Assembly (NCBI GenBank): GCA_010405405.1
Contig: MU004238.1
Location: 1,809,530 to 1,873,529, forward strand
DNA from: Microthyrium microscopicum
Taxonomy: Eukaryota
Direction: 5' to 3'
Length of the DNA stretch: 64,000 nucleotides
The notes below the pieces were generated by a model. It made no database searches and was not told the DNA's origin. It saw only the letters and a list, made by a program, of their open reading frames with translations. Below are positions 19,267-34,200 of this stretch, one piece after another. Positions within the stretch are counted from its first letter, which is position 1; each line of letters opens with the position of its first letter. The position numbers and the translations under genes were made by a program.

Positions 19267-21297
19267 CTAGCTAAGATTGTTCTTTGTGTCCTCAAGATGC
19301 TTCCTGTCAGCCTCTTGTAAGGCGACGGTCTTCTTGGTGTACTTTCTCTTATCGATGGTTGGAATGAACAATGCGGCAATGCAACCTGTAAGACCAAAAG
19401 CCAATGCCACGTAGTAAGCAAGATGTGCGCCTTGTAGATATGCCTCTTTGTTGGCCAGCACAGCTGCGGCTTCGACTTGAGGATTGATGCCTGGAACCTT
19501 TGCATATGCGGCAGCAGTGCCAGTACCAGCGGCAACAATAAGAGCCTTCAGGTTGGTGGCCGGGAAGTTGAGCTTCGTTGCAGCGGCTGTAATGTAGCTT
19601 GGGAGCTCTGCCTTGTACTTATTCGCTGAAACGTTACCGAAAATGGCGATTGCGATGGATCCTGCCAGTAGGCGAGCGGTGCCAGCAATACCAGCCGCCG
19701 TTCCGATATCTTCTTGATAGACAATACCAAAACCAACCATGACAAGACAGTTAAGGATGACTAAACTTGTGCACATGGAGATGATGACACTGAGTATGAT
19801 TGATTTCGCGTGGTTTTCCACGCTGGCGGTCGACATGGCACCGATGCAAGCCGTCTGTAGTGCAATTGAAAAGAAGACCTGCCATCTTTGATGGCCAATT
19901 TTCTTGGAAAACATTATTATGATTCCTCCGACTATATTGCATTAGAACTGACATCACCGAAAAGATCAAGATTGGATCAAACTTACAGATGGTTCCTAGT
20001 GAAAGGGCTTCACCATACAATCCTTTTTGAATGTCTGTAGTAGCATATACAAGCTGTGACATACGTGGCCACTATATACATGTTAGTGTGTGACAATGTT
20101 TTTGGACTGTGAATACTCGTACAAGAGTAGCTTGGCTGTAGTATTGCATGCCGGCGATAGCCATAGCGACGATTGGCATGGTAAAGCTAATATGGGATCA
20201 GTCTCATTCATACTGTTTTTGAGATTGGATACTCACTGTCGAACTTGTTTGAAAAGCCGTGGTGGTAGTAATGGTTCCGTTATTTTACCATATCGTTCAT
20301 AGAAGCCAAGACCAATGAGGGTGCAGAATCCAACCACGATAGGAGCGATTGTCGCAGCACTTTTCCATGGATGAAGACTTCCACCCCATGAAAGTCCACA
20401 GATGAGAAGAGTGCAACCCGCAACGAAAAGAAACAGACCGATCCAGTCAAACTCTTTCAAAAGCTGCAGTTTTGTCTTGCCATCAGCGCGATGCTTTGTT
20501 TTGAATGCTGGCGGATTGTAGAAGAAGAACAAGAAGATTATGTTAAGGGCTTGGAAACCTATCATCATGTAGTAACAGTTTCGCCAGTTCCCGGTGAGGT
20601 CAATGATCGCCCAAGAGGTCAACGGCATCATCTGAGCAATGATAGAGGAGGCATCGAATAAACCAATCGTAACCATGCGCCATTCAGCAGGCACGATTTC
20701 CTTGGAAAGTAGTTAGAACTGTGAAGCTATGTAAGATATGGCTGATGACCTACCTGGACAGCACCAAATGACATTTCCAAGAAACCAGAGCCGGCACCAA
20801 ACAATGCTCCTCCTGCAATCATTTGCGGTATACTTTTGCCCGTTGCACTAACAACACTGCCAATCAGGATTATGCAGCTGCCAGCGATGAAGAACCATCG
20901 ACGACCAAAGATGTCCGAGAGACGACCTCCTACTGTGACGAAGATGGCGCCTCCTAGATTCCAAGAGATAGTGATCCAGGTGTAGGTCGGATCTGGTCCA
21001 AGTTCAGCGTTGATGAAGCTTAGAATGGCCGGTGGAATCAACAGTGTGAACAGATAAGCATTATAACACATGCCCATAGCCTATAATTCCAAAGTCAATT
21101 TGGGTCAAGATTATGGTTTAATCACTTACACAAGCAGCCATAATGGTTCTCCATGTCATACCAACTTCGTAACCCGTTGTTTCCAAGTGACGAATGATGG
21201 CCTCTTGTGCATCGCCCTCCCGGGCTGGAGATGTGGTGCTCGAGCGGTCGACATTGTCGACATGCTCAAGAGCTGCTTTCTCGTGAATTTCTGCCAT
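19267..21297 (-). CDS. MFS transporter, fungal TRI12 (trichothecene efflux pump)-like family
   Basis: MFS motif A (GRLSDIFGRRWFF), LINAELGPDPTYTW, WRNCYY...FFYNPP, FDWIGLFLF...GLSWGG..HPWKSA, and many TM segments across exons. Confidence 0.88.
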
Positions 21298-22419
21298 GCT
21301 TTCAAAGTGCAAAAAGAAACAGAACCTTGGAGGGAAACTCTTGAGAGCGACAGCGCGCCTGGATAATTATATATCTTTGAGCTTTACCACCCTCTTGGAT
21401 CCATTCATTCCGATTTCTAAGCTACTGCCATCTCGCAAGACTACTCTATTGACTAGCGCTTCTCCACACTGCATGACCCCAGATTATTGGCAAGGCTGTA
21501 GGTTCGTAGAATGATAATGAAGATGTTTCCCGGGTCGCTAGTGAAGCTAAGGATACGCTCCTTCGGGTTGGGCACGCGAAAGCTTACTTCTCTGGGTCAC
21601 TTGGCGGATATAGAGGCGGATCTAGAGGCGGAACCAGTACGGTAGGCCAAGGAAATGAACGAATGATTGGACGCGGAAAATGTGCTTCCAAAACCTAAGG
21701 GTCGGTGAAGTTGCGAGGAGACCAAAATGAGGAAGCATCGGAAAAGCACATCCATTATCGCCACCATGTTACTGGCGTTCATCAGGGATATCCTTTTCCT
21801 CCGATTATTCTCATTACTATGACCAATAACATCGAAGAGCACAATTTATAAATGCTGATTTTTCTCAAGTGTCATGTTGGAACAATACTTCATTTGATGG
21901 ATGCAAGTTGTGGAAACAAGACCAGAGATCAGCGAGTCTAAAGGTAGAGAAGGTCAGCACAGCGAGCTGCAAAAGCTAACAACCAGTATCCAGCAATCCG
22001 GAAGACGCGCTATTTTGGGACTAACTTGTTAGGCTAGGCACGGGACCTTGATTATCTCTACCAAAGGACCACATTCCCGGGTCAATCAAGGTCTGGACTT
22101 TGGTAGGCCTCAGCCCAGGAACCAAGATCCTATGGCGACGAGGACATAAATGATCATCTGCAGCCTTGCCATGATCGAAATGTACCAATAACAATATGGT
22201 ATTGTTAGCTTGTTGCTCGGATTTGAAGCTTGACATGCAAAAGTGACCTCTTGGACGCTGACTCAATATAAACCACCCTGATTATCGAATTCCGCAAGCG
22301 AGATATCTGAAAAGTAAAGCGCCAGAGTTTATTCTACTAAACAAGGGTCCAAGTGATCCTGAATGGCTTAACCGTTCGCATCTAGTGTCTCCAAGTGAAT
22401 TTCCAACCACCTTTGCAGA

Positions 22420-23339
22420 TCATGGACCAGTGATACTCTGGATATCGTCCAGTCTTCTGGTCTCGATCCATGCAATGGCTTCCTTTCTATTCCGACACAT
22501 GTGTGCCTGTCCTCCACCTCTACTGTCAAGCAATGATTCTGAGCCTTCTAGCGTCATGTCGGCTGAACAGAGTATCTGATTTCGGAGATACTCAAAACAA
22601 TGTGCGGCATGATCATCATTCCTTTCTCCGTCAAATCCAAAAGACCCATTAACGACCAGTTGGTGGTATGTATCCACACTATAGTACAGACAATGCAAAG
22701 CATGCGTCCACGATGCTTCGTATAGGGGACCAGACCTGATAGGATCATCAAGGATTGGTTTACCTAACAAAGGATACTGTTCATGTTCCGGAATTGCAAC
22801 GCTTCCACTTCCCACTGCCTCTAGGTTAGCTAAATTTTCCTTTGGCAAAACACGGCATTTCTTGATTAACTTACATGGCATCAGTAGATCCCAGTTCTTT
22901 CTCACCTCCATCCTATTGACATTGGAAGCCATATCTGGTATGAAAGCAGATTCATTTGAAGTAAGTATTGTGTAGGTGTGTGATTCTATCAAATATTAGG
23001 AGAAGAAACTTGGAAGAATAATAGGACGTTACTTGGAATATAGAGACCATTCACGTCGCCTCCTGTTTCTGTTTCTGAAGTCTTCCATTCTACTTCGCGG
23101 TCCGAGTTTTCATTCCGCAATAGTAAAATTATTATCGCAGTTTGTAGTATAGTAATAGTTGCCCAACGAAACCATACCAACAGAGAGGAAAGATTTTGGA
23201 AGCGCGGATATCCTCTGCGCCTCAGAGAAGTCTTTCTGCGCTTACCATCAGAAGTCAAGGTCGAGTCAGAGCAATACTCCAAGTCAAGAGCCTCCATATT
23301 AAGAGGTGTGTACTCTTGCTTGTTGTTGGAGGATTCCAT
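22420..23339 (-). CDS. UstYa-like / DUF3328 oxidase (copy 1)
   Basis: N-terminal TM anchor (WFRWATITILQTAIIILLL), WDLLMP, two HxxHC motifs (HALHC, HAAHC) followed by FEYLRNQILCSADMTLE and HMCRN. Introns at about 23032-22986 and 22874-22815. Confidence 0.93.
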
Positions 23340-23881: not shown

Positions 23882-24843
23882 TCAGAATTCATCTGGCTGT
23901 TCCATGTTTCCCACTGAATTTTTCAATCCCCACTGCCGTACTTTATCAAAATTCCGGCAAGTATGATGTGAGTTCAACTCAGGCCATGGCAATGGGTCGC
24001 CCTCGAGCATGTAGAACGTGAATACTCCAATGTCGGCATTACACTGCGTATTGACTCGAAGAACTTCCAGGCAATGATCTGGGCAGCTATCAGTAACAAA
24101 AAATCTCAATGTGAAAGGCTGCATTACCTGTGTGCATTTGTAGTTCTTCGCCACTGACCGCAAGATTTCCAATCTCAATTTCTGTATAATACTCTTTGTA
24201 TGTTACTTGACGAAGCAGGTTGATGCAATGCAGTTGATGGAAGACTTCAAGCCCAACCCTATAGCCTTCTACTCCAGTTTTGGGGTTCTTCACTTTCAAG
24301 CTATCTTTTGGCATGTTGATGATATCAAGCTCTTCCGGAGAAATCATTTGGTCACCAACTGGATAAATCAGAAAAATAGTTCATTCTAGTCATAAATAAC
24401 TTACTATCGTAAGAAAGTGCATCCCATGCTTTATCAACTTCCGGGCCTTTGCCGGTGTAGGGGGATTTCTTTCCCATTGTGAAGTTGAATTTCACATTCT
24501 CATATTCAACAGCCTCCACAGCGGGTGCTAGATACGTTGTTAGATCAGTTACTTTAGATCTGTTCCAGAGACACTCACAATATGCTGAAAAACGTCTCAC
24601 ATGCTCTGCTGTTGAGATATGTCTAAAATACGTTGCTGTGAACATTGTAAAAGAAAGCGAAAGGAGTACGGCATGCACCAGCCACAACCACCTGGACTGG
24701 AATCCTTGACTGTCATGAGATATTTTGGAGACTTCTTCGTGCAGCAATGTCAAATCTGAGGAAGAGGAAATTGAAGTACGATTTCGATAGCCATCATGAT
24801 ATTTCTCTTCCTCCTTTCGAACTGGTTGATAGGTTTGAGACAT
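23882..24843 (-). CDS. UstYa-like / DUF3328 oxidase (copy 2)
   Basis: TM anchor (WLWLVHAVLLSLSFTMF), Y|SPAVEAVEY, SPYTGKGPEVDKAW, LEVFHQLHCINLLR, HT|DHCLEVLRVNTQCNAD and HTCRNFDKVRQW. Four exons. Confidence 0.95.
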
Positions 24844-25658: not shown

Positions 25659-26423
25659 ATGCATACCTTCTCTTTCGCCCAGCTCTTGACTGTTGGTCTT
25701 TTGGCTATTGCGCCAATCACTTCAGCCTATGTTGTTGATGGAGGAGAAACTGAAGAGCTATCTACCAAGAGATGGCTTGTAAGTACTACCAATCTCAAGT
25801 GACTCTGAGCCAAAATTGAGCAGTCTTAGGGAAGTCCATCTGTCCTTGTACGATCTGTCTTACAAGTTCGACATCACGCCGCTGCTAAAGGGTAAGTTGT
25901 ACTGTCTACACATCACAAAGCAAACCTAATCAAAACCAGGGCGGCTAAAAAAGGAAAGAAGGCAAAGAAGGCACAGAAAATTGCCCGTGCCATTGATCTC
26001 GTAGCGCGAGACCCTCATCACGCTGCTGCCAAGGGCGCGAAGAAAGGGAAGGGTGCGAAGCACGCTGCTCGCAGTGTTGAAGTCGAGGCCAGAGATCCTC
26101 ACCACGCTGCTGCCAAGGGAGCGAAAAAAGGGAAGGGCGCGAAGCACGCTGCTCGCAGTGTTGAAGTCGAGGCTAGAGACCCTCACCACGCTGCTGCCAA
26201 AGGCGCGAAAAAGGGAAAAGGAGCAAAGCACGCCGCTCGCAATGTTGAAGTCGAGGCCAGAGACCCTCATCACGCTGCTGCCAAGGGAGCCAAAAAGGGA
26301 AAGGGAGCAAAGCACGCCGCTCGCAGTGTTGAAGTCGAGGCCAGGGACCCTCATCACGCTGCTGCCAAAGGCGCGAAGAAGGGAAAGGGCGCAAAGAAAG
26401 GCACAGCAGCCAAAGCAGCATAG
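25659..26423 (+). CDS. Secreted tandem-repeat peptide precursor (KEP / candidate RiPP precursor), 221 aa
   Basis: Exons 25659-25778, 25830-25891 and 25940-26423 (GTAAGT donors; TAG and CAG acceptors) join in frame. Product: signal peptide MHTFSFAQLLTVGLLAIAPITSA, acidic pro-region ending LSTKR, WLGSPSVLVRSVLQVR-HHAAAKGAAKKGKKAKKAQKIAR-AIDLVAR, then 4x[DPHHAAAKGAKKGKGAKHAAR-(S/N)VEVEAR], then DPHHAAAKGAKKGKGAKKGTAAKAA*. Confidence 0.9.
26010..26420 (+). repeat. 84-bp coding tandem repeat (four full units plus a diverged fifth)
   Basis: Units start GA(C/T)CCTCA(C/T)CAC at 26010, 26094, 26178, 26262 and 26346. Confidence 0.97.
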
Positions 26424-26737: not shown

Positions 26738-28529
26738 CTAGCCACCATAAGTCGCTCCAGCTGCTGGCCTTCTGACCACACCCGGATCGTCTATTTTCAG
26801 AGTTTCGGAGCCATCTAGCCCTGAAAAAACAGCACCATATTGTACTCTTCGATGCCCAATTTCACCTAGGAGCGTCTGTGACGTCGAATTCGCATCCTGG
26901 CTGCGTAAAATTGGGGCTCCGAAGGCTCTCCCAACCTCAATCGGACTCAACGAAACAGCTCGCCCAAGCGACCACCAGCCGGCGAATATTGGTGCAACAC
27001 ATACCACAGCTAGAATCGTAACAGCTACCGCGCCTGACATGAAGGCATAATTTGAACGGAAAACCGTTACCACTTCCGACTGCTGAGCCATAATTTCTTG
27101 TATATCTGTGGAATTTGTAAGGTTTGCCGAGTGCAAAGCTGCCCGAAAGGCAAGTTCGCGAGCAGAATCAAGGACCTTATCTGTTGGGTCACTCCATGTG
27201 GTTGGACACTTCTGCGTAAGGCTGGAGTTGGTAGACTTGATGAAGCTGAATGCACCGCTCCCTTGGCTTGAATATTCCAAGCCAACAGCGCCACCAAAAC
27301 TCATGTGGACGCTTGAAGACCACTGTGTCGTTAAAGCCAGGAACATCCCGCCATGCGTTGTAGGCCCAGTGGCTCCTTGGGGAGCGGTGGTGGTGTAACG
27401 AATCAATCTGTCGAATTCATGATTGAAGTCCGGATCTAGAAAAGCGGAATCGTTTCGGAATAGCACTGGATATACCATGGTGGCTGGGCGGAGAGTACAA
27501 TTTTTGACCTCAAGTGTTCCATTGCAGGCGTCCGTTGTTTTATACACGCTATTGTATTTGATGGGAGCAGTTTGACTGTATTCATCATAAGCGAAAGAAA
27601 TGGAAAATATGTCGAAGCCGGTATAGTTGAAGGTTACGGAACCATTGCTTTCAAGATGAGCTACCGCGAAAGGTACAGTTGTAGAAATGCATAGCATCTG
27701 GTAGCCGGCGCCTTGTAAATTTGCTTTGCATGTCCCATGACAACCGCTATTCGAAACGTTGACCGGTGTCCCAGCATTATACTCAGTTAATACTGTACTG
27801 AAATTTGACGTAGGAAAGGATGCAATTCTCTGACAGTCTGTTAGTCATAGTGTAAGTACATTAAGGAAGTATTTGACAATGTTCTTCTCGGAACTAAGCA
27901 CGGAAAGAACTTACAACTCGGCCAGTGATGATTCCTGTCAATCCTTGAGCAAACTCTTGAGCAATAGGCACTCTCATCTTCATAGTCGAATTGACCAGCT
28001 TTGTGCCCACGGTCGAAGAGCGCTGTAGCAGTGGCCCGTTTATGGGCATGAGAGAAGCAGCGATGCCAGCGATTGCCATAATATTCAGTGCCGGTCCAGC
28101 GAGTAATGCTGCTCTAGACTGCGTCCCAAATGCCCAGATATTGCTCAATTCTGTCAATTGGGCTCCACGCGATGCCTTTACCCACCAAGCCACGGCCACA
28201 CCCTCTGAAAGCGATGCGCGAAGAAAGATGTTGGCACCCGCGGACGCGATAGCCAAGTACACAGAAGGTTGCACCACCCAGTTACTGACTGGAGATTCAT
28301 TCGAAGAGACAATAATTCCGACCATGACACCGGTACATGCAAAGGCAGTTAGAAGCGACAAAATCCCGGCCCAAGGCAATCGCCTCCAGAACCCAGTTTT
28401 CCATGGTGATGTGGCTTCGAGAGGTTGATATGATTGATTCTGCTTTCCATATAAAGAGTTTGTGGACTTGTTATCTTGCAGTGAATGTTGAAGGTGATCC
28501 CGCAACATGTACTCTTCATTCGAAGCCAT
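26738..28529 (-). CDS. Fungal membrane protein, DUF3176-like
   Basis: Two N-terminal TMs with PVSNW..QPSVYLAI...SLSEGVAVAWW, NGPLLQRSST, an N-glycosylation-rich luminal region, and a C-terminal TM followed by GWWSLGRAVSLSPIEVGRAFGAP. Confidence 0.7.
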
Positions 28530-31274: not shown

Positions 31275-34200
31275 CTAGCGACCATTCCGATGCCCATTCG
31301 CCGGCACTCCAAAATAATCATCCTCCTCAGCGTCTTCCTCATCATCATCGTCTGCACCATCCGTGATTCCCAGCCCACTGCGTCCACCTCTTGAAGTGCC
31401 ATCACCAGCCTCAACCTCATCAGCAAAGTTCGTCGCCAACGCACCACCACCTGTATTGATGCGCAAAAGCTCGCCTTCCACATAGCTAGCCACGCGGCTA
31501 TCCTGCTCAGCCTTTTGGGCCAGCGCATCTGCGTCCCAGACACCGACTGAATTGACGCGACGGAGGCGGGCACGACGGATTTGCTCTACGTCTTCTTCAT
31601 CGTCGTCTTCATCTATTGATTCAGCACCAGCGTTTGAGATAGGCGGACGAGAGGAGACGGATGACTGTCGACGGCCGCCGAGATCGCGCGCGGTGGAGGA
31701 GCGGCGGAGTCGGCGAGGGCCGAACCCGGTTTTGGAGCGCTGAAGAATGTCGTCAAAGTAGTGAGCAGCGGCAGCGCCGGGGGTGGCGGGAGTTTGAGGA
31801 AGTTTGCAGTTGATGCTAAAAGGCATGTTAGTATAAGATGAAAAAGGGGAACCAGTGCGGACATACCCAGTATCATGGATGATCTTTGCTATGAGACCTG
31901 TCCATCCAGTCTGGTGAGTGGCGCCGAGACCGCGACCGGTGTCGCCGTCAAAGAATTCGTAGAACCATACACAGTCTCTCCAATTGGGGTCGAAATCGAC
32001 CATGTCGTTGCCGTTGTTGATAGGGCGGCGACCTTCGTTGTCTTGGAGGAATAGTCCAGTGAGACGATGCTGGATTTCTTCAGCAACCTGGCCAAGATGT
32101 TTTTCATCGCCAGAGCCGGTGGGGCATTCGACAGTAAGACTATTGCCGTAGAACATGTAGAAGCGTTGCAGAGATTCGACAATGAGGAAGTTGACTGCGA
32201 GCCATATTGGGCCACGCCAGTTGCTGTTTCCACCGAAAAGACCACTGTCAGAGTCGCCAGGTAGGTAAGCGACTTCAAACTTTTGGCCGTTGACAACCAT
32301 AGAGTAAGGATTGTCCTTGTGAAATTTTGATAGTGAGCGTATTCCATGATCCGCAAAGAATTCCTCCTCATCCAGCATGCGATGAAGAATTCTCCTCAGC
32401 TTGTTTTCGTCGCAAAGAGCGAGCAGCATTCGATCGCCTCGACCTTTTCGTTTGAGACTTGCTAGATTTCGGTCCGCAATTTCTTTGTTGTGTTCGATAA
32501 ACCACTGAACTCGCTTTTTGAACCATGGCAATCTGTCCATGACCTCCGGCTCCAGTGTACACGTTGCGTACAATGGAATAAGACCGACCAGAGACCGTAC
32601 CGGCATCTGAAGGCTCCAAGGGCCGCCCCATGAAATCGCATCATAGTAGAAACCATCTTCGTCGTTCCACAATGGTTTCGACTCGCCACCAGATCGATAT
32701 CGTAGTGCGTCGCTGATAAGAATGAAATGCTCAAAGAATTTTGATGCAATATCTTCGTATGTCCGTCTCCATTTGGCCAGTTCCAAAGAAATGTTCAACA
32801 TGCAAACACAATAGAAACCCATCCAGCCAGTGCTGTCAGCTTGTTCAAGAACACCTCCTGTAGGTAGAGGATCTGAGCGGTTGAAGATACCAATATTGTC
32901 GAGGCCTAAAAAGCCACCTTCAAAGACGTTTTTGCCATCAGAATCCTTCCGATTGACCCACCAAGTAAAGTTTATGAGTAGCTTAGTGAAGCATCGCTCT
33001 AGGAAATCCATATCTTCGACGCCGTACATTTTCCGCTCAATTTTGAATGTTCGGAAGACAGACCACGCATGGACTGGTGGATTGGTGTCACCAAAGTTCC
33101 ATTCATACGCAGGAAGTTGACCGTTGGGGTGCATGTACCATTCGCGAGTAAACAAGTCGAGCTGCTTCTTTGCAAATTCTGGATCAATCATAGCCAGAGG
33201 AATGCAGTGAAAAGCAGTGTCCCAAGCGGCAAAGAACGGGTATTCCCAGGAATCAGGCATGGAGAGAATATCGTCCAAATACATGTGCTTCCACTGCGCA
33301 TTTCGAATATTCTTGCGACTTTCGGGCGGAGGTGGCATACTAGGATCGCCATTCGCCCATTGATCCCAGATGAAATGGTAATATTGCTTGCACCAAAGCA
33401 TACCAGCAAAAGCTTGTCGTTGAATGTTTCGCATATCCTCGCTGATAGGCATAGGACTAATGCGAGCATAGAACTCATCTGCTTCTACCCGACGTTGCTC
33501 GATAATCTCATCGCAAAGTTCTTCGTCGACATATCCATCAGCATTTGGAGAGACTCGAAACCGGACGACAGCACATTCTCCTGGCTTGATACCCTCATCT
33601 TCGTCAAAAGCATACCAAGCTGCAAGTTTAGTACCGGTACCATTGGGATTCACGGCATTTTCTTCGTTGTCACAGATGTGTTTGTGGAAAGCATCCTTGA
33701 CATATTTTGTCTTGTTGTCTCCCCATCCTAGGGCTTCGTAATTGGTGTCATTGTCTGTGAATAGAAGAGTTGGTTCAATATCGTCGCTGTTTTCGCCAAC
33801 ACCAGGAGATGGTGAGAATTCTACATATCGTTCTCCAAGGTCGGGGTGGACAGCCTTGGCCAGTAGCTCAGATTCCTGATTTATTGATGGTTTTTTATCC
33901 GGAGCCTCCCGGCCCCATGCCCATGTGTTTCGGAACCAAGTTTGCGGTATAATATGAAGAGGAGCGGGCTTGTTTCCGCGATTCCAAGCCGTCACACGAA
34001 ATACGAGGGCCTCTGGATCATCGGCCTCTTTTGCAGTCTCGATGAATATATCCCAATATTCATCGTCTTCGAAAATGCCGGTATCTGTGATGTTGTATTC
34101 TTTATCGAGGCGACCGCGTCGAGCGTTTTCTTTGATGAGATCCTCGTAGGGAAATGCACGTTGAGGGTACTTGTAGAGGAATTTCATGTAGGAATGCTGC

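What the first reader, a model, noticed from the sequence alone, without database searches (positions are those of the whole stretch)
26010..26423. Non-canonical core: polycationic His/Lys/Ala/Gly peptide with no Tyr, Phe or Trp
Seen: the repeated core HHAAAKGAKKGKGAKHAAR (19 aa after DP) contains 3 His, 7 Ala, 5 Lys, 3 Gly and 1 Arg. Established: the characterised dikaritin cores I know are short and cyclised through Tyr/Phe (YAIG, YVIPID, FYYTGY, GLKLAF); other DUF3328 enzymes do aliphatic halogenation or hydroxylation. Inference: if modified, the chemistry must be different, for example His-Lys or His-His crosslinks, or Lys/aliphatic hydroxylation or halogenation. The product would resemble a cationic antimicrobial or nucleic-acid-binding peptide, and an N-terminal His-His could bind Cu/Ni.
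Basis: partly seen in the sequence, partly recalled or inferred. Interest (0 to 1): 0.8.

Follow-up and report, generated by a model that had tools for sequence, protein, structure and literature searches.

The report
Di-histidine peptide precursor, BcCGF1 relative
This fungal gene encodes a secreted protein that is probably cut into short histidine-tipped, lysine-rich peptides and modified by two neighbouring copper enzymes, and its grey-mould counterpart is a known germination gene that had not, in the papers I could search, been recognised as a peptide precursor.

Summary
The repeat is real, protein-coding and spliced in one run's contigs. It belongs to a 221-aa precursor that lies head-to-head with two intact DUF3328/UstYa genes.

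It is not unprecedented. Tyr-free di-His cores beside DUF3328 genes were catalogued by Umemura 2020 (types G-3/#6 and G-8). Leader, gene layout and both enzymes make this locus the orthologue of type #6, although its core has lost the family's T-E-x-Q-I residues.

The new link is that the Botrytis type-#6 precursor is BcCGF1 (BCIN_16g01820). Its knockout delays germination, lowers ROS and is rescued by cAMP; that paper never mentions Kex2, repeats or DUF3328.

Best reading: Kex2, Ste13 and Kex1 release an 18-residue His-His peptide, which the copper enzymes oxidise at His, Ala or Lys. It then acts on the fungus's own development rather than as an antimicrobial. The deviant core narrows the candidate sites to His1, His2, Ala5, Ala8 and Lys10.

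Modification, product structure and function here are inferred, not shown. No product structure turned up in my searches.

The parts
25659..25778 (+). Precursor exon 1: hydrophobic N-terminus (probable signal peptide, about residues 1-23), acidic pro-region, the only KR site, then Trp-Leu
   Evidence: gene model; splice joint; leader scores 41 bits on a type-#6 leader HMM against a maximum of 9.9 for shuffles; no signal-peptide predictor was run
25779..25829 (+). Intron 1 (GT..AG, 51 nt), two codons after the KR site
   Evidence: same place and phase in relative L022
25830..25891 (+). Precursor exon 2: rest of the pro-segment, LxxR-type site, start of the first His-His core
25892..25939 (+). 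Intron 2 (GT..AG, 48 nt) inside the first core
25940..26423 (+). Precursor exon 3: end of core 1, four identical cores with acidic spacers, C-terminal variant core, stop
25872..25988 (+). Core 1 (variant, split by intron 2); matches the family consensus at 6 of the first 10 positions
26016..26324 (+). Cores 2-5: identical 18-mers plus Arg (26016-26072, 26100-26156, 26184-26240, 26268-26324), each after a monobasic aliphatic-x-x-Arg site and Asp-Pro
26352..26423 (+). Core 6 (variant ending at the stop codon)
23882..24843 (-). DUF3328/UstYa enzyme A, 271 aa, 3 introns, one TM helix, two HxxHC motifs (170, 205); head-to-head with the precursor, 816 bp between ATGs
   Evidence: Pfam PF11807; introns; model; 55-59% identical to Botrytis orthologues
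22420..23339 (-). DUF3328/UstYa enzyme B, 270 aa, 2 introns, one TM helix, two HxxHC motifs (177, 208)
   Evidence: identical to Microthyrium microscopicum KAF2667142.1 and 59% identical to BCIN_16g01800

Best explanation
This is a minimal three-gene peptide locus, orthologous to the widespread di-histidine KEP type #6 and so to Botrytis BcCGF1. SHOWN: gene structure, splicing of all three genes, protein-level selection on the repeat, orthology of the leader and both enzymes. INFERRED from known KEP processing: the precursor enters the secretory pathway, Kex2 cuts after the aliphatic-x-x-Arg sites, a Ste13-type peptidase removes Asp-Pro and stops at His-His, and Kex1 trims the last Arg. This gives about six His-His-headed, Lys-rich peptides; the main one is 18 aa, +5 at pH 7, linear monoisotopic mass 1737.99 (about 0.8). 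INFERRED from co-inheritance: the two lumenal copper enzymes oxidise the core (about 0.65). His most likely serves as the electron-rich ring in place of Tyr (a His-anchored cross-link, or His/Lys hydroxylation). The residues kept in common with the family (His1, His2, Ala5, Ala8, Lys10) are the candidate sites (His about 0.45). INFERRED from the BcCGF1 knockout: the product acts on the producer's own spores and hyphae upstream of cAMP and ROS, as a germination or development signal (about 0.4).
For: A profile search gave 66 relatives. 63 of 69 pooled precursors carry a conserved HHTEAQIAAK-type core, and 6 of 6 accessions looked up are Umemura type 6 with DUF3328 nearby. The window leader scores 41 bits on the type-6 leader model, against 14.8 on the other-HH model and a maximum of 9.9 among 498 scored shuffles. 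A Botryotinia type-6 precursor hits only this gene in the genome. Enzyme B orthologues lie 2-3 locus tags or accessions from such precursors in Capronia, Icmadophila, Varicellaria, Trichoderma chlorosporum and Talaromyces stipitatus, and in Botrytis B05.10. Enzyme A homologues beside His-His precursors score 174-336 bits, against 32-96 for 11 other DUF3328 loci of this genome. They lie head-to-head in 6 of 7 metagenome loci with at least 2.5 kb upstream. xP/xA dipeptides of variable number precede His-His in 125 of 185 cores, and 60 have none, as Ste13 trimming to a fixed N-terminus predicts. Kex2-like and DPP-IV-family genes are present. BcCGF1's named homologue PQE13889.1 and B05.10 ATZ58384.1 are both type 6; the phenotype is.
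Against: No peptide or modification was observed anywhere. The core fails the type-6 consensus at 4-5 of 10 positions, so function may have diverged from BcCGF1. The C-terminal cut (His at P4, monobasic) fits Kex2 poorly: only 48 of 186 family C-side sites are dibasic or aliphatic-P4. One type-6 locus (L022) has no DUF3328 within about 8 kb on either side, and 7 of 64 type-6 genes lack one in Umemura's table. His-His is barely enriched among DUF3328-linked KEPs (5.7% against 3.9%). The Botrytis DUF3328 neighbours are absent from the 22 supplementary files in which BcCGF1 is listed as 156-fold induced. The invariance of His-His is partly built into my searches. Four of the six supporting metagenome loci share one core type and are not independent. 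I did not see the BCIN_16g01820 sequence itself; that link rests on accession order and the paper's named homologue.
Confidence: 0.55

Rival explanations
1. The His-His peptides are released linear and unmodified, like alpha-factor. The DUF3328 pair acts on another part of the precursor (the single segment after the first KR site, which starts with Tyr, His or Trp) or is dispensable.
For: The segment starts with Tyr in 11 and His in 3 of 28 type-6 leaders, and with Trp here. The Ste13 signature is typical of linear pheromone-like KEPs (PMC6339444 passages). L022 lacks the enzymes. No co-induction is listed in Botrytis.
Against: Six leaders (the Botrytis-type ones) have no aromatic residue there, yet Botrytis keeps both enzymes at 55-59% identity. 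Enzyme A homologues also follow precursors with unrelated His-His cores. 57 of 64 type-6 genes keep a DUF3328 neighbour.
Confidence: 0.2
2. The peptide is mainly a copper carrier or copper-redox agent. The free N-terminal His-His binds Cu, the Lys tail tethers it to anionic cell surfaces, and it feeds or drives local ROS chemistry. Signalling effects are secondary.
For: His-His sits at the predicted mature N-terminus in every core type found, with otherwise unrelated Lys-rich tails. The BcCGF1 knockout lowers ROS and raises stress sensitivity. Cu binding by an N-terminal Xaa-His is recalled knowledge, not tested.
Against: cAMP rescues the knockout, which fits signalling better. The near-invariant positions 7-10 of type 6 (96-98%) are more than metal binding needs. 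A His cross-link could remove ligands.
Confidence: 0.2
3. It is a cationic antimicrobial or nucleic-acid-binding defence peptide.
For: Net +5 at pH 7 and +7.7 at pH 5. Several relatives are equally Lys-rich. His/Lys-rich non-lytic antifungal peptides exist (histatin 5, recalled).
Against: 0 of 18 large hydrophobic residues, and a hydrophobic moment of 0.27 that 23% of 2000 shuffles reach. Median net charge of the family cores is +2. The orthologue's knockout phenotype appears in axenic culture.
Confidence: 0.12
4. The protein is secreted largely intact, or cut only at the xEAR sites, as a charge-alternating structural or cell-wall polypeptide.
For: No dibasic sites lie at the repeat boundaries here. 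The BcCGF1 knockout is sensitive to SDS and Congo Red.
Against: N-side sites are dibasic or aliphatic-P4 in 176 of 186 family cores, matching the expanded Kex2 motif (PMC8528282 passages). The variable-number xP/xA dipeptides make sense only with processing.
Confidence: 0.07

Closest known systems
KEP type #6 / G-3 of Umemura 2020 (PMC7329392): di-histidine KEPs, 64 genes in 20 ascomycete genera, 57 with DUF3328 nearby
   Same: Homologous leader, same two DUF3328 orthologues in the same order, intron 1 position, His-His after R-xP, Lys/Ala-rich tail.
   Different: Core positions 3, 4, 6 and 7 differ (Ala, Ala, Lys, Gly for Thr, Glu, Gln, Ile). More cationic. Lacks the acidic Phe/Trp unit present in 34 of 63 relatives. 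Monobasic boundaries. Microthyrium is not in that catalogue.
BcCGF1 (BCIN_16g01820) of Botrytis cinerea, Zhang et al. 2020 (PMC7214349)
   Same: Type-6 precursor two genes from the enzyme B orthologue; predicted secreted; gives the only genetic phenotype I found for the family.
   Different: Described as a 255-aa protein without domains; 0 mentions of Kex2, DUF3328, RiPP or repeat in its main text. Botrytis precursors carry the consensus core, not this variant.
Dikaritins (ustiloxin, phomopsin, asperipin-2a, epichloecyclin)
   Same: Signal peptide, multi-copy cores, acidic spacers, adjacent UstYa/DUF3328 genes with two HxxHC motifs.
   Different: No Tyr in the core, no tyrosinase, methyltransferase or S41 peptidase found in the window, a Ste13 signature present, and a long cationic core.
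CctR (DUF3328 copper hydroxylase, PMC12435403)
   Same: Single TM helix, lumenal HxxHC(x)nHxxHC copper site; a precedent for aliphatic C-H oxidation without Tyr.
   Different: CctR acts on a non-ribosomal cyclic pentapeptide; no sequence comparison with CctR was run.
Ascomycete alpha-pheromone precursors
   Same: Kex2 site followed by xP/xA dipeptides before each copy.
   Different: Those are not accompanied by DUF3328 genes and carry Trp/Cys motifs.

Membership tests
KEP (Umemura 2020 definition) | ER signal peptide | tested here: inconclusive
   Hydrophobic N-terminus homologous to type-6 leaders; no predictor was available or run.
KEP (Umemura 2020 definition) | at least 3 tandem repeats of at least 8 aa | tested here: met
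   4 identical plus 2 variant cores.
KEP (Umemura 2020 definition) | repeats bounded by KR, KK, RK or RR | tested here: not met
   Boundaries are monobasic (aliphatic-x-x-Arg); KK occurs only inside the core (definition). It works like a KEP under the expanded LxxR motif.
KEP (Umemura 2020 definition) | peptides actually released by Kex2 | not testable with these tools
   Needs peptidomics.
KEP type #6 / Cgf1 family | homologous leader | tested here: met
   41 bits against a shuffle maximum of 9.9 and 14.8 on the other-HH model.
KEP type #6 / Cgf1 family | orthologous DUF3328 pair in conserved order | tested here: met
   A 55-59%, B 52-62% identical to neighbours of type-6 precursors.
KEP type #6 / Cgf1 family | repeat profile HHTEAQIAAK | tested here: not met
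   6 of 10 positions in core 1 and 5 of 10 in the repeats. Filed as an orthologous locus with a divergent core, not as a profile member.
KEP type #6 / Cgf1 family | shared intron two codons after the first dibasic site | tested here: inconclusive
   Clean match in L022. In L078 the donor is in the same place but the acceptor does not read in frame.
Dikaritin RiPP | adjacent DUF3328 with intact HxxHC(x)nHxxHC | tested here: met
   Two genes, each with two motifs, spliced.
Dikaritin RiPP | Tyr in the core for an aryl-ether macrocycle | tested here: not met
   No Tyr/Phe/Trp in any core here; 2 of 185 family cores contain Phe.
Dikaritin RiPP | clustered tyrosinase (ustiloxin/phomopsin subtype) | tested here: not met
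   16 tyrosinase matches in the genome, none on contig C9; none in the 51 window ORFs scanned.
Dikaritin RiPP | DUF3328-dependent modified product | not testable with these tools
   Needs MS and NMR.
Amphipathic cationic antimicrobial peptide | net positive charge | tested here: met
   +5.0 at pH 7.
Amphipathic cationic antimicrobial peptide | hydrophobic face | tested here: not met
   0 of 18 large hydrophobic residues; moment reached by 23% of shuffles.

The most novel reading that the evidence does not exclude
The di-histidine precursors plus their dedicated DUF3328 clade make a Tyr-free class of fungal RiPP, found in five ascomycete classes, in which copper enzymes cross-link or oxidise histidine. 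The product is an autocrine germination and development hormone acting upstream of cAMP and ROS, and it is the unrecognised product of Botrytis BcCGF1. The Microthyrium core is a natural variant that strips the substrate down to His1, His2, Ala5, Ala8 and Lys10.
Probability: 0.25. Interest if true: 0.85.

Novelty: new variant of a known kind. Interest (0 to 1): 0.6.

Why it matters
What DUF3328 enzymes do to the many Tyr-free precursors they accompany is an open question, and so is whether any fungal RiPP has a function for its producer: deleting ustiloxin, asperipin or epichloecyclin genes gave no phenotype (PMC7329392). This locus ties one of the most widely distributed Tyr-free types to a gene with a strong published knockout phenotype. 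It also gives a three-gene system small enough for heterologous expression, with a predicted mass and a short list of candidate residues. If the product is a modified self-signal, it would be new copper-enzyme chemistry and a new kind of fungal developmental peptide.

Tried and rejected
Searches that gave nothing:
- Single-sequence search of 5.8 billion proteins with exon 3: 0 hits among 8000 candidates.
- ESM Atlas: no usable hit for exon 3 or for P0034.
- Pfam on exon 3: only a sub-threshold Wbp11 match, rejected as compositional. PF28547, listed for P0034, did not appear in the Pfam scan and stays unidentified.
- Earlier-finding look-ups by sequence and by nearby place were empty.
- Sequence motifs of the family were in 0 papers and in none of the text-held supplements of PMC7329392 or PMC6339444. 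Figures, where sequences may be drawn, are not held, and most subscription papers are not searchable.

Rows dropped:
- 11 of 19 hits were dropped as unrelated repeats after reading them.

Ideas considered and rejected:
- The tail-to-tail DUF3176 gene as a receptor, and the TRI12-like MFS gene as a cluster member: no homologue of either by tblastn in 20 His-His loci, nor by Pfam in 34 long ORFs of 7 loci. Many loci are short, and DUF3176 has 21 exon matches in this genome. Left out of the module.
- Horizontal transfer of enzyme B from Helotiales: it groups with Cudoniella and Hyaloscypha at 94/81 and 90/86 on a long branch, in a clade that also holds Venturia. No clade test was run, so nothing is claimed.
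- Trichoderma RiPP cluster 55 (PMC7099791 passages) and the lichen clans (PMC12048977 passages) are unrelated. PMC9100685 holds both BcCGF1 and DUF3328, but BcCGF1 only in its reference list.

Other limits: no run on record as RNA was listed, and contig depths were not used to rank genes. No structure or complex prediction was run.

Full report
1. OBSERVATION. It is exon 3 of a 221-aa gene with ATG at 25659, introns at 25779-25829 and 25892-25939, and stop at 26421-26423. Contigs of one public run (X1; RNA is the tool's guess) skip both introns, and also the introns of the two upstream genes, at GT..AG. This shows transcription and splicing, not levels. There are four identical cores, a variant at the C-terminus and a variant across intron 2. 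Among the four full 84-nt repeats, 14 of 15 variable bases are third positions and the single replacement is in the spacer, so the peptide sequence is under selection. The 19th residue is the Arg of the cut site; the predicted mature peptide is 18 aa, +5.0 at pH 7, monoisotopic 1737.99.

2. SURROUNDINGS. Two UstYa/DUF3328 genes lie head-to-head with the precursor: A (24843 to 23882, 271 aa) and B (23339 to 22420, 270 aa). Each has one hydrophobic helix and two HxxHC motifs. Spliced B is identical to Microthyrium microscopicum KAF2667142.1. No tyrosinase lies on this contig (16 matches elsewhere). Pfam scans of 16 + 35 window ORFs found no tyrosinase, methyltransferase or S41 peptidase; short exons were not scanned. 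A Kex2-like gene and DPP-IV-family genes exist elsewhere in the genome. The flanking TRI12-like transporter and DUF3176 gene were not found beside other His-His precursors.

3. RELATIVES. A phmmer search gave 19 hits, of which 8 were fungal His-His repeat precursors. A profile of these gave 66 hits. Of the 69 pooled proteins, 63 carry a conserved HHTEAQIAAK-type core with a Lys-rich tail, and 34 of those also carry an acidic Phe/Trp unit. None carries the window's core. Named hosts span Leotiomycetes, Eurotiomycetes, Sordariomycetes, Lecanoromycetes and Dothideomycetes (class assignments recalled). Six of six accessions looked up are KEP type 6 with DUF3328 nearby in Table S2 of Umemura 2020 (PMC7329392; parts 1, 3 and 4 of 8, further passages, and supplement searches). 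That paper already says that types G-3 (#6; 57 of 64 with DUF3328) and G-8 (#15; 45 of 49) have di-histidine motifs instead of Tyr. A Tyr-free His-His core beside DUF3328 genes is therefore catalogued, though no product is described there.

The window locus is the orthologue of type 6. Its leader scores 41 bits on a model of 28 type-6 leaders (two rows without a signal peptide were dropped), against 14.8 on a model of 5 other His-His leaders and a maximum of 9.9 among 498 of 500 shuffles reported. A Botryotinia type-6 precursor hits only this gene in the genome. Intron 1 sits at the same codon in L022; L078 is unclear. Of 34 other named enzyme B hits, 5 have a precursor within 2-3 locus tags or accessions, 2 more share a contig length with one, and 1 has both on separate short contigs. 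The rest, Botrytis apart, had no precursor among my hits and could not be tested. The core itself fails the family consensus at positions 3, 4, 6 and 7 (positions 3-6 are fixed in that count by my filter).

A metagenome pattern scan (120 loci, capped) gave 20 true precursor loci with further cores that share only His-His and a Lys-rich tail. Six of 7 loci with at least 2.5 kb upstream have an enzyme A homologue head-to-head. Four of the six share one core type, and L022 has no DUF3328 within about 8 kb. These homologues score 174-336 bits against A, while 11 other DUF3328 loci of the same genome score 32-96. Enzyme A therefore belongs to a clade that follows His-His precursors, while B was seen only with type 6. 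Because His-His was part of the search, I cannot exclude A-clade enzymes beside other cores.

4. THE BcCGF1 LINK. The Botrytis B05.10 orthologue of B is BCIN_16g01800 / ATZ58381.1, and the B05.10 type-6 precursor is ATZ58384.1. A paper search for the neighbouring tags found BCIN_16g01820 = BcCGF1. Zhang et al. 2020 (PMC7214349; abstract, sections 19, 22 and 24, end of Results, passages, and 22 supplementary files searched) describe a 255-aa predicted secreted protein without domains, 66% identical to PQE13889.1. That homologue is type 6 with DUF3328 in Umemura's table. The knockout delays conidial germination, reduces infection structures, ROS and stress tolerance, and is rescued by cAMP. The main text has 0 mentions of Kex2, DUF3328, RiPP or repeat. 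A 2026 paper (PMC13659265, passages) still treats it as a ROS-related gene. In searches I found no paper joining the two lines; only one held both BcCGF1 and DUF3328, and only through its reference list. Against a simple picture, the DUF3328 neighbours are not listed in the supplements where BcCGF1 is 156-fold induced. I did not see the BCIN_16g01820 sequence; other B. cinerea precursors at that locus carry the repeats.

5. MECHANISM. Processing (inferred): N-side sites are dibasic or aliphatic-P4 in 176 of 186 family cores, fitting the expanded Kex2 motif (PMC8528282 passages). Monobasic cleavage of KEPs has been suggested from peptidomics (PMC9769878 passages). Zero to several xP/xA dipeptides precede His-His, the Ste13 signature (PMC6339444 passages), which fixes His-His at the mature N-terminus. 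The C-side cut is less sure; the acidic spacer may remain as a follower.

Modification (inferred): DUF3328 proteins are lumenal, dimeric copper enzymes that oxidise C-H bonds with O2 (PMC12435403, parts 1-2 of 3). With both enzymes intact while Thr, Glu, Gln and Ile are lost, the residues shared with the family are His1, His2, Ala5, Ala8 and Lys10. With the unrelated cores, only His-His and Lys are shared. His as the aromatic partner is my preferred guess; His cross-links made by plant copper cyclases (moroidin) are recalled, not checked here. A rival substrate is the segment after the KR site (Trp here, Tyr in 11 of 28 leaders), but Botrytis-type leaders lack an aromatic residue there and keep both enzymes.

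Function (inferred): the orthologue's phenotype points to a self-acting germination or development factor, through a receptor upstream of cAMP or through copper and ROS. A membrane-lytic antimicrobial role is unlikely, since there is no hydrophobic face.

6. MEMBERSHIP AND NOVELTY. It works like a KEP and like a dikaritin cluster. It fails the strict dibasic KEP rule, the type-6 repeat profile, and the Tyr and tyrosinase features of dikaritins, so I file it as a new variant of a known kind. The Tyr-free His-His idea was in print in 2020. The variant core, the dedicated enzyme clade and the identification of BcCGF1 as such a precursor were not found in print by my searches; subscription journals, figures and preprint supplements were out of reach.

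Noticed in passing
window 26738-28529 (-): A 568-aa DUF3176 membrane protein gene (one intron, 27830-27914) lies tail-to-tail with the precursor, and one X1 contig runs across both ends. Earlier notes report KEP-DUF3176 pairs elsewhere, but no homologue was found beside 20 other His-His loci.
   Followed up: partly
window 19267-21941 (-): A spliced TRI12-like MFS transporter lies directly downstream of enzyme B; it was not found in other His-His loci.
   Followed up: partly
L126, L128, L133, L134, L124 (G000 C15, C8, C12, C7, C6): Five other DUF3328 loci of this genome have their own repeat ORFs: four look like KEP precursors with Trp- or Tyr-containing cores (L133 with many different cores), and one has an Arg/Asp/Gly/His-rich repeat.
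   Followed up: no
P0015, P0021, P0024 and others: 34 of 63 type-6 precursors interleave a second, strongly conserved acidic unit with two Phe and two Trp; it is absent here and in Botrytis.
   Followed up: partly
L022:7470-8774: A type-6 precursor with no DUF3328 gene within about 8 kb on either side, flanked by an aldehyde dehydrogenase and a short-chain dehydrogenase.
   Followed up: partly
L048, L059, L063: His-His precursors whose spacers carry a conserved Trp-containing acidic segment different from the type-6 one.
   Followed up: no
window 22420-23339 (-): Enzyme B of this Dothideomycete groups with Helotiales sequences on a long branch with middling support.
   Followed up: partly
window 21941-21992 (+): One X1 contig shows a plus-strand GT..AG joint at the 5' end of the minus-strand MFS transcript, hinting at an antisense or convergent transcript.
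   Followed up: no
window 31275-34187 (-): A 970-aa ORF with MGH1-like / GH63 glycoside hydrolase domains.
   Followed up: no
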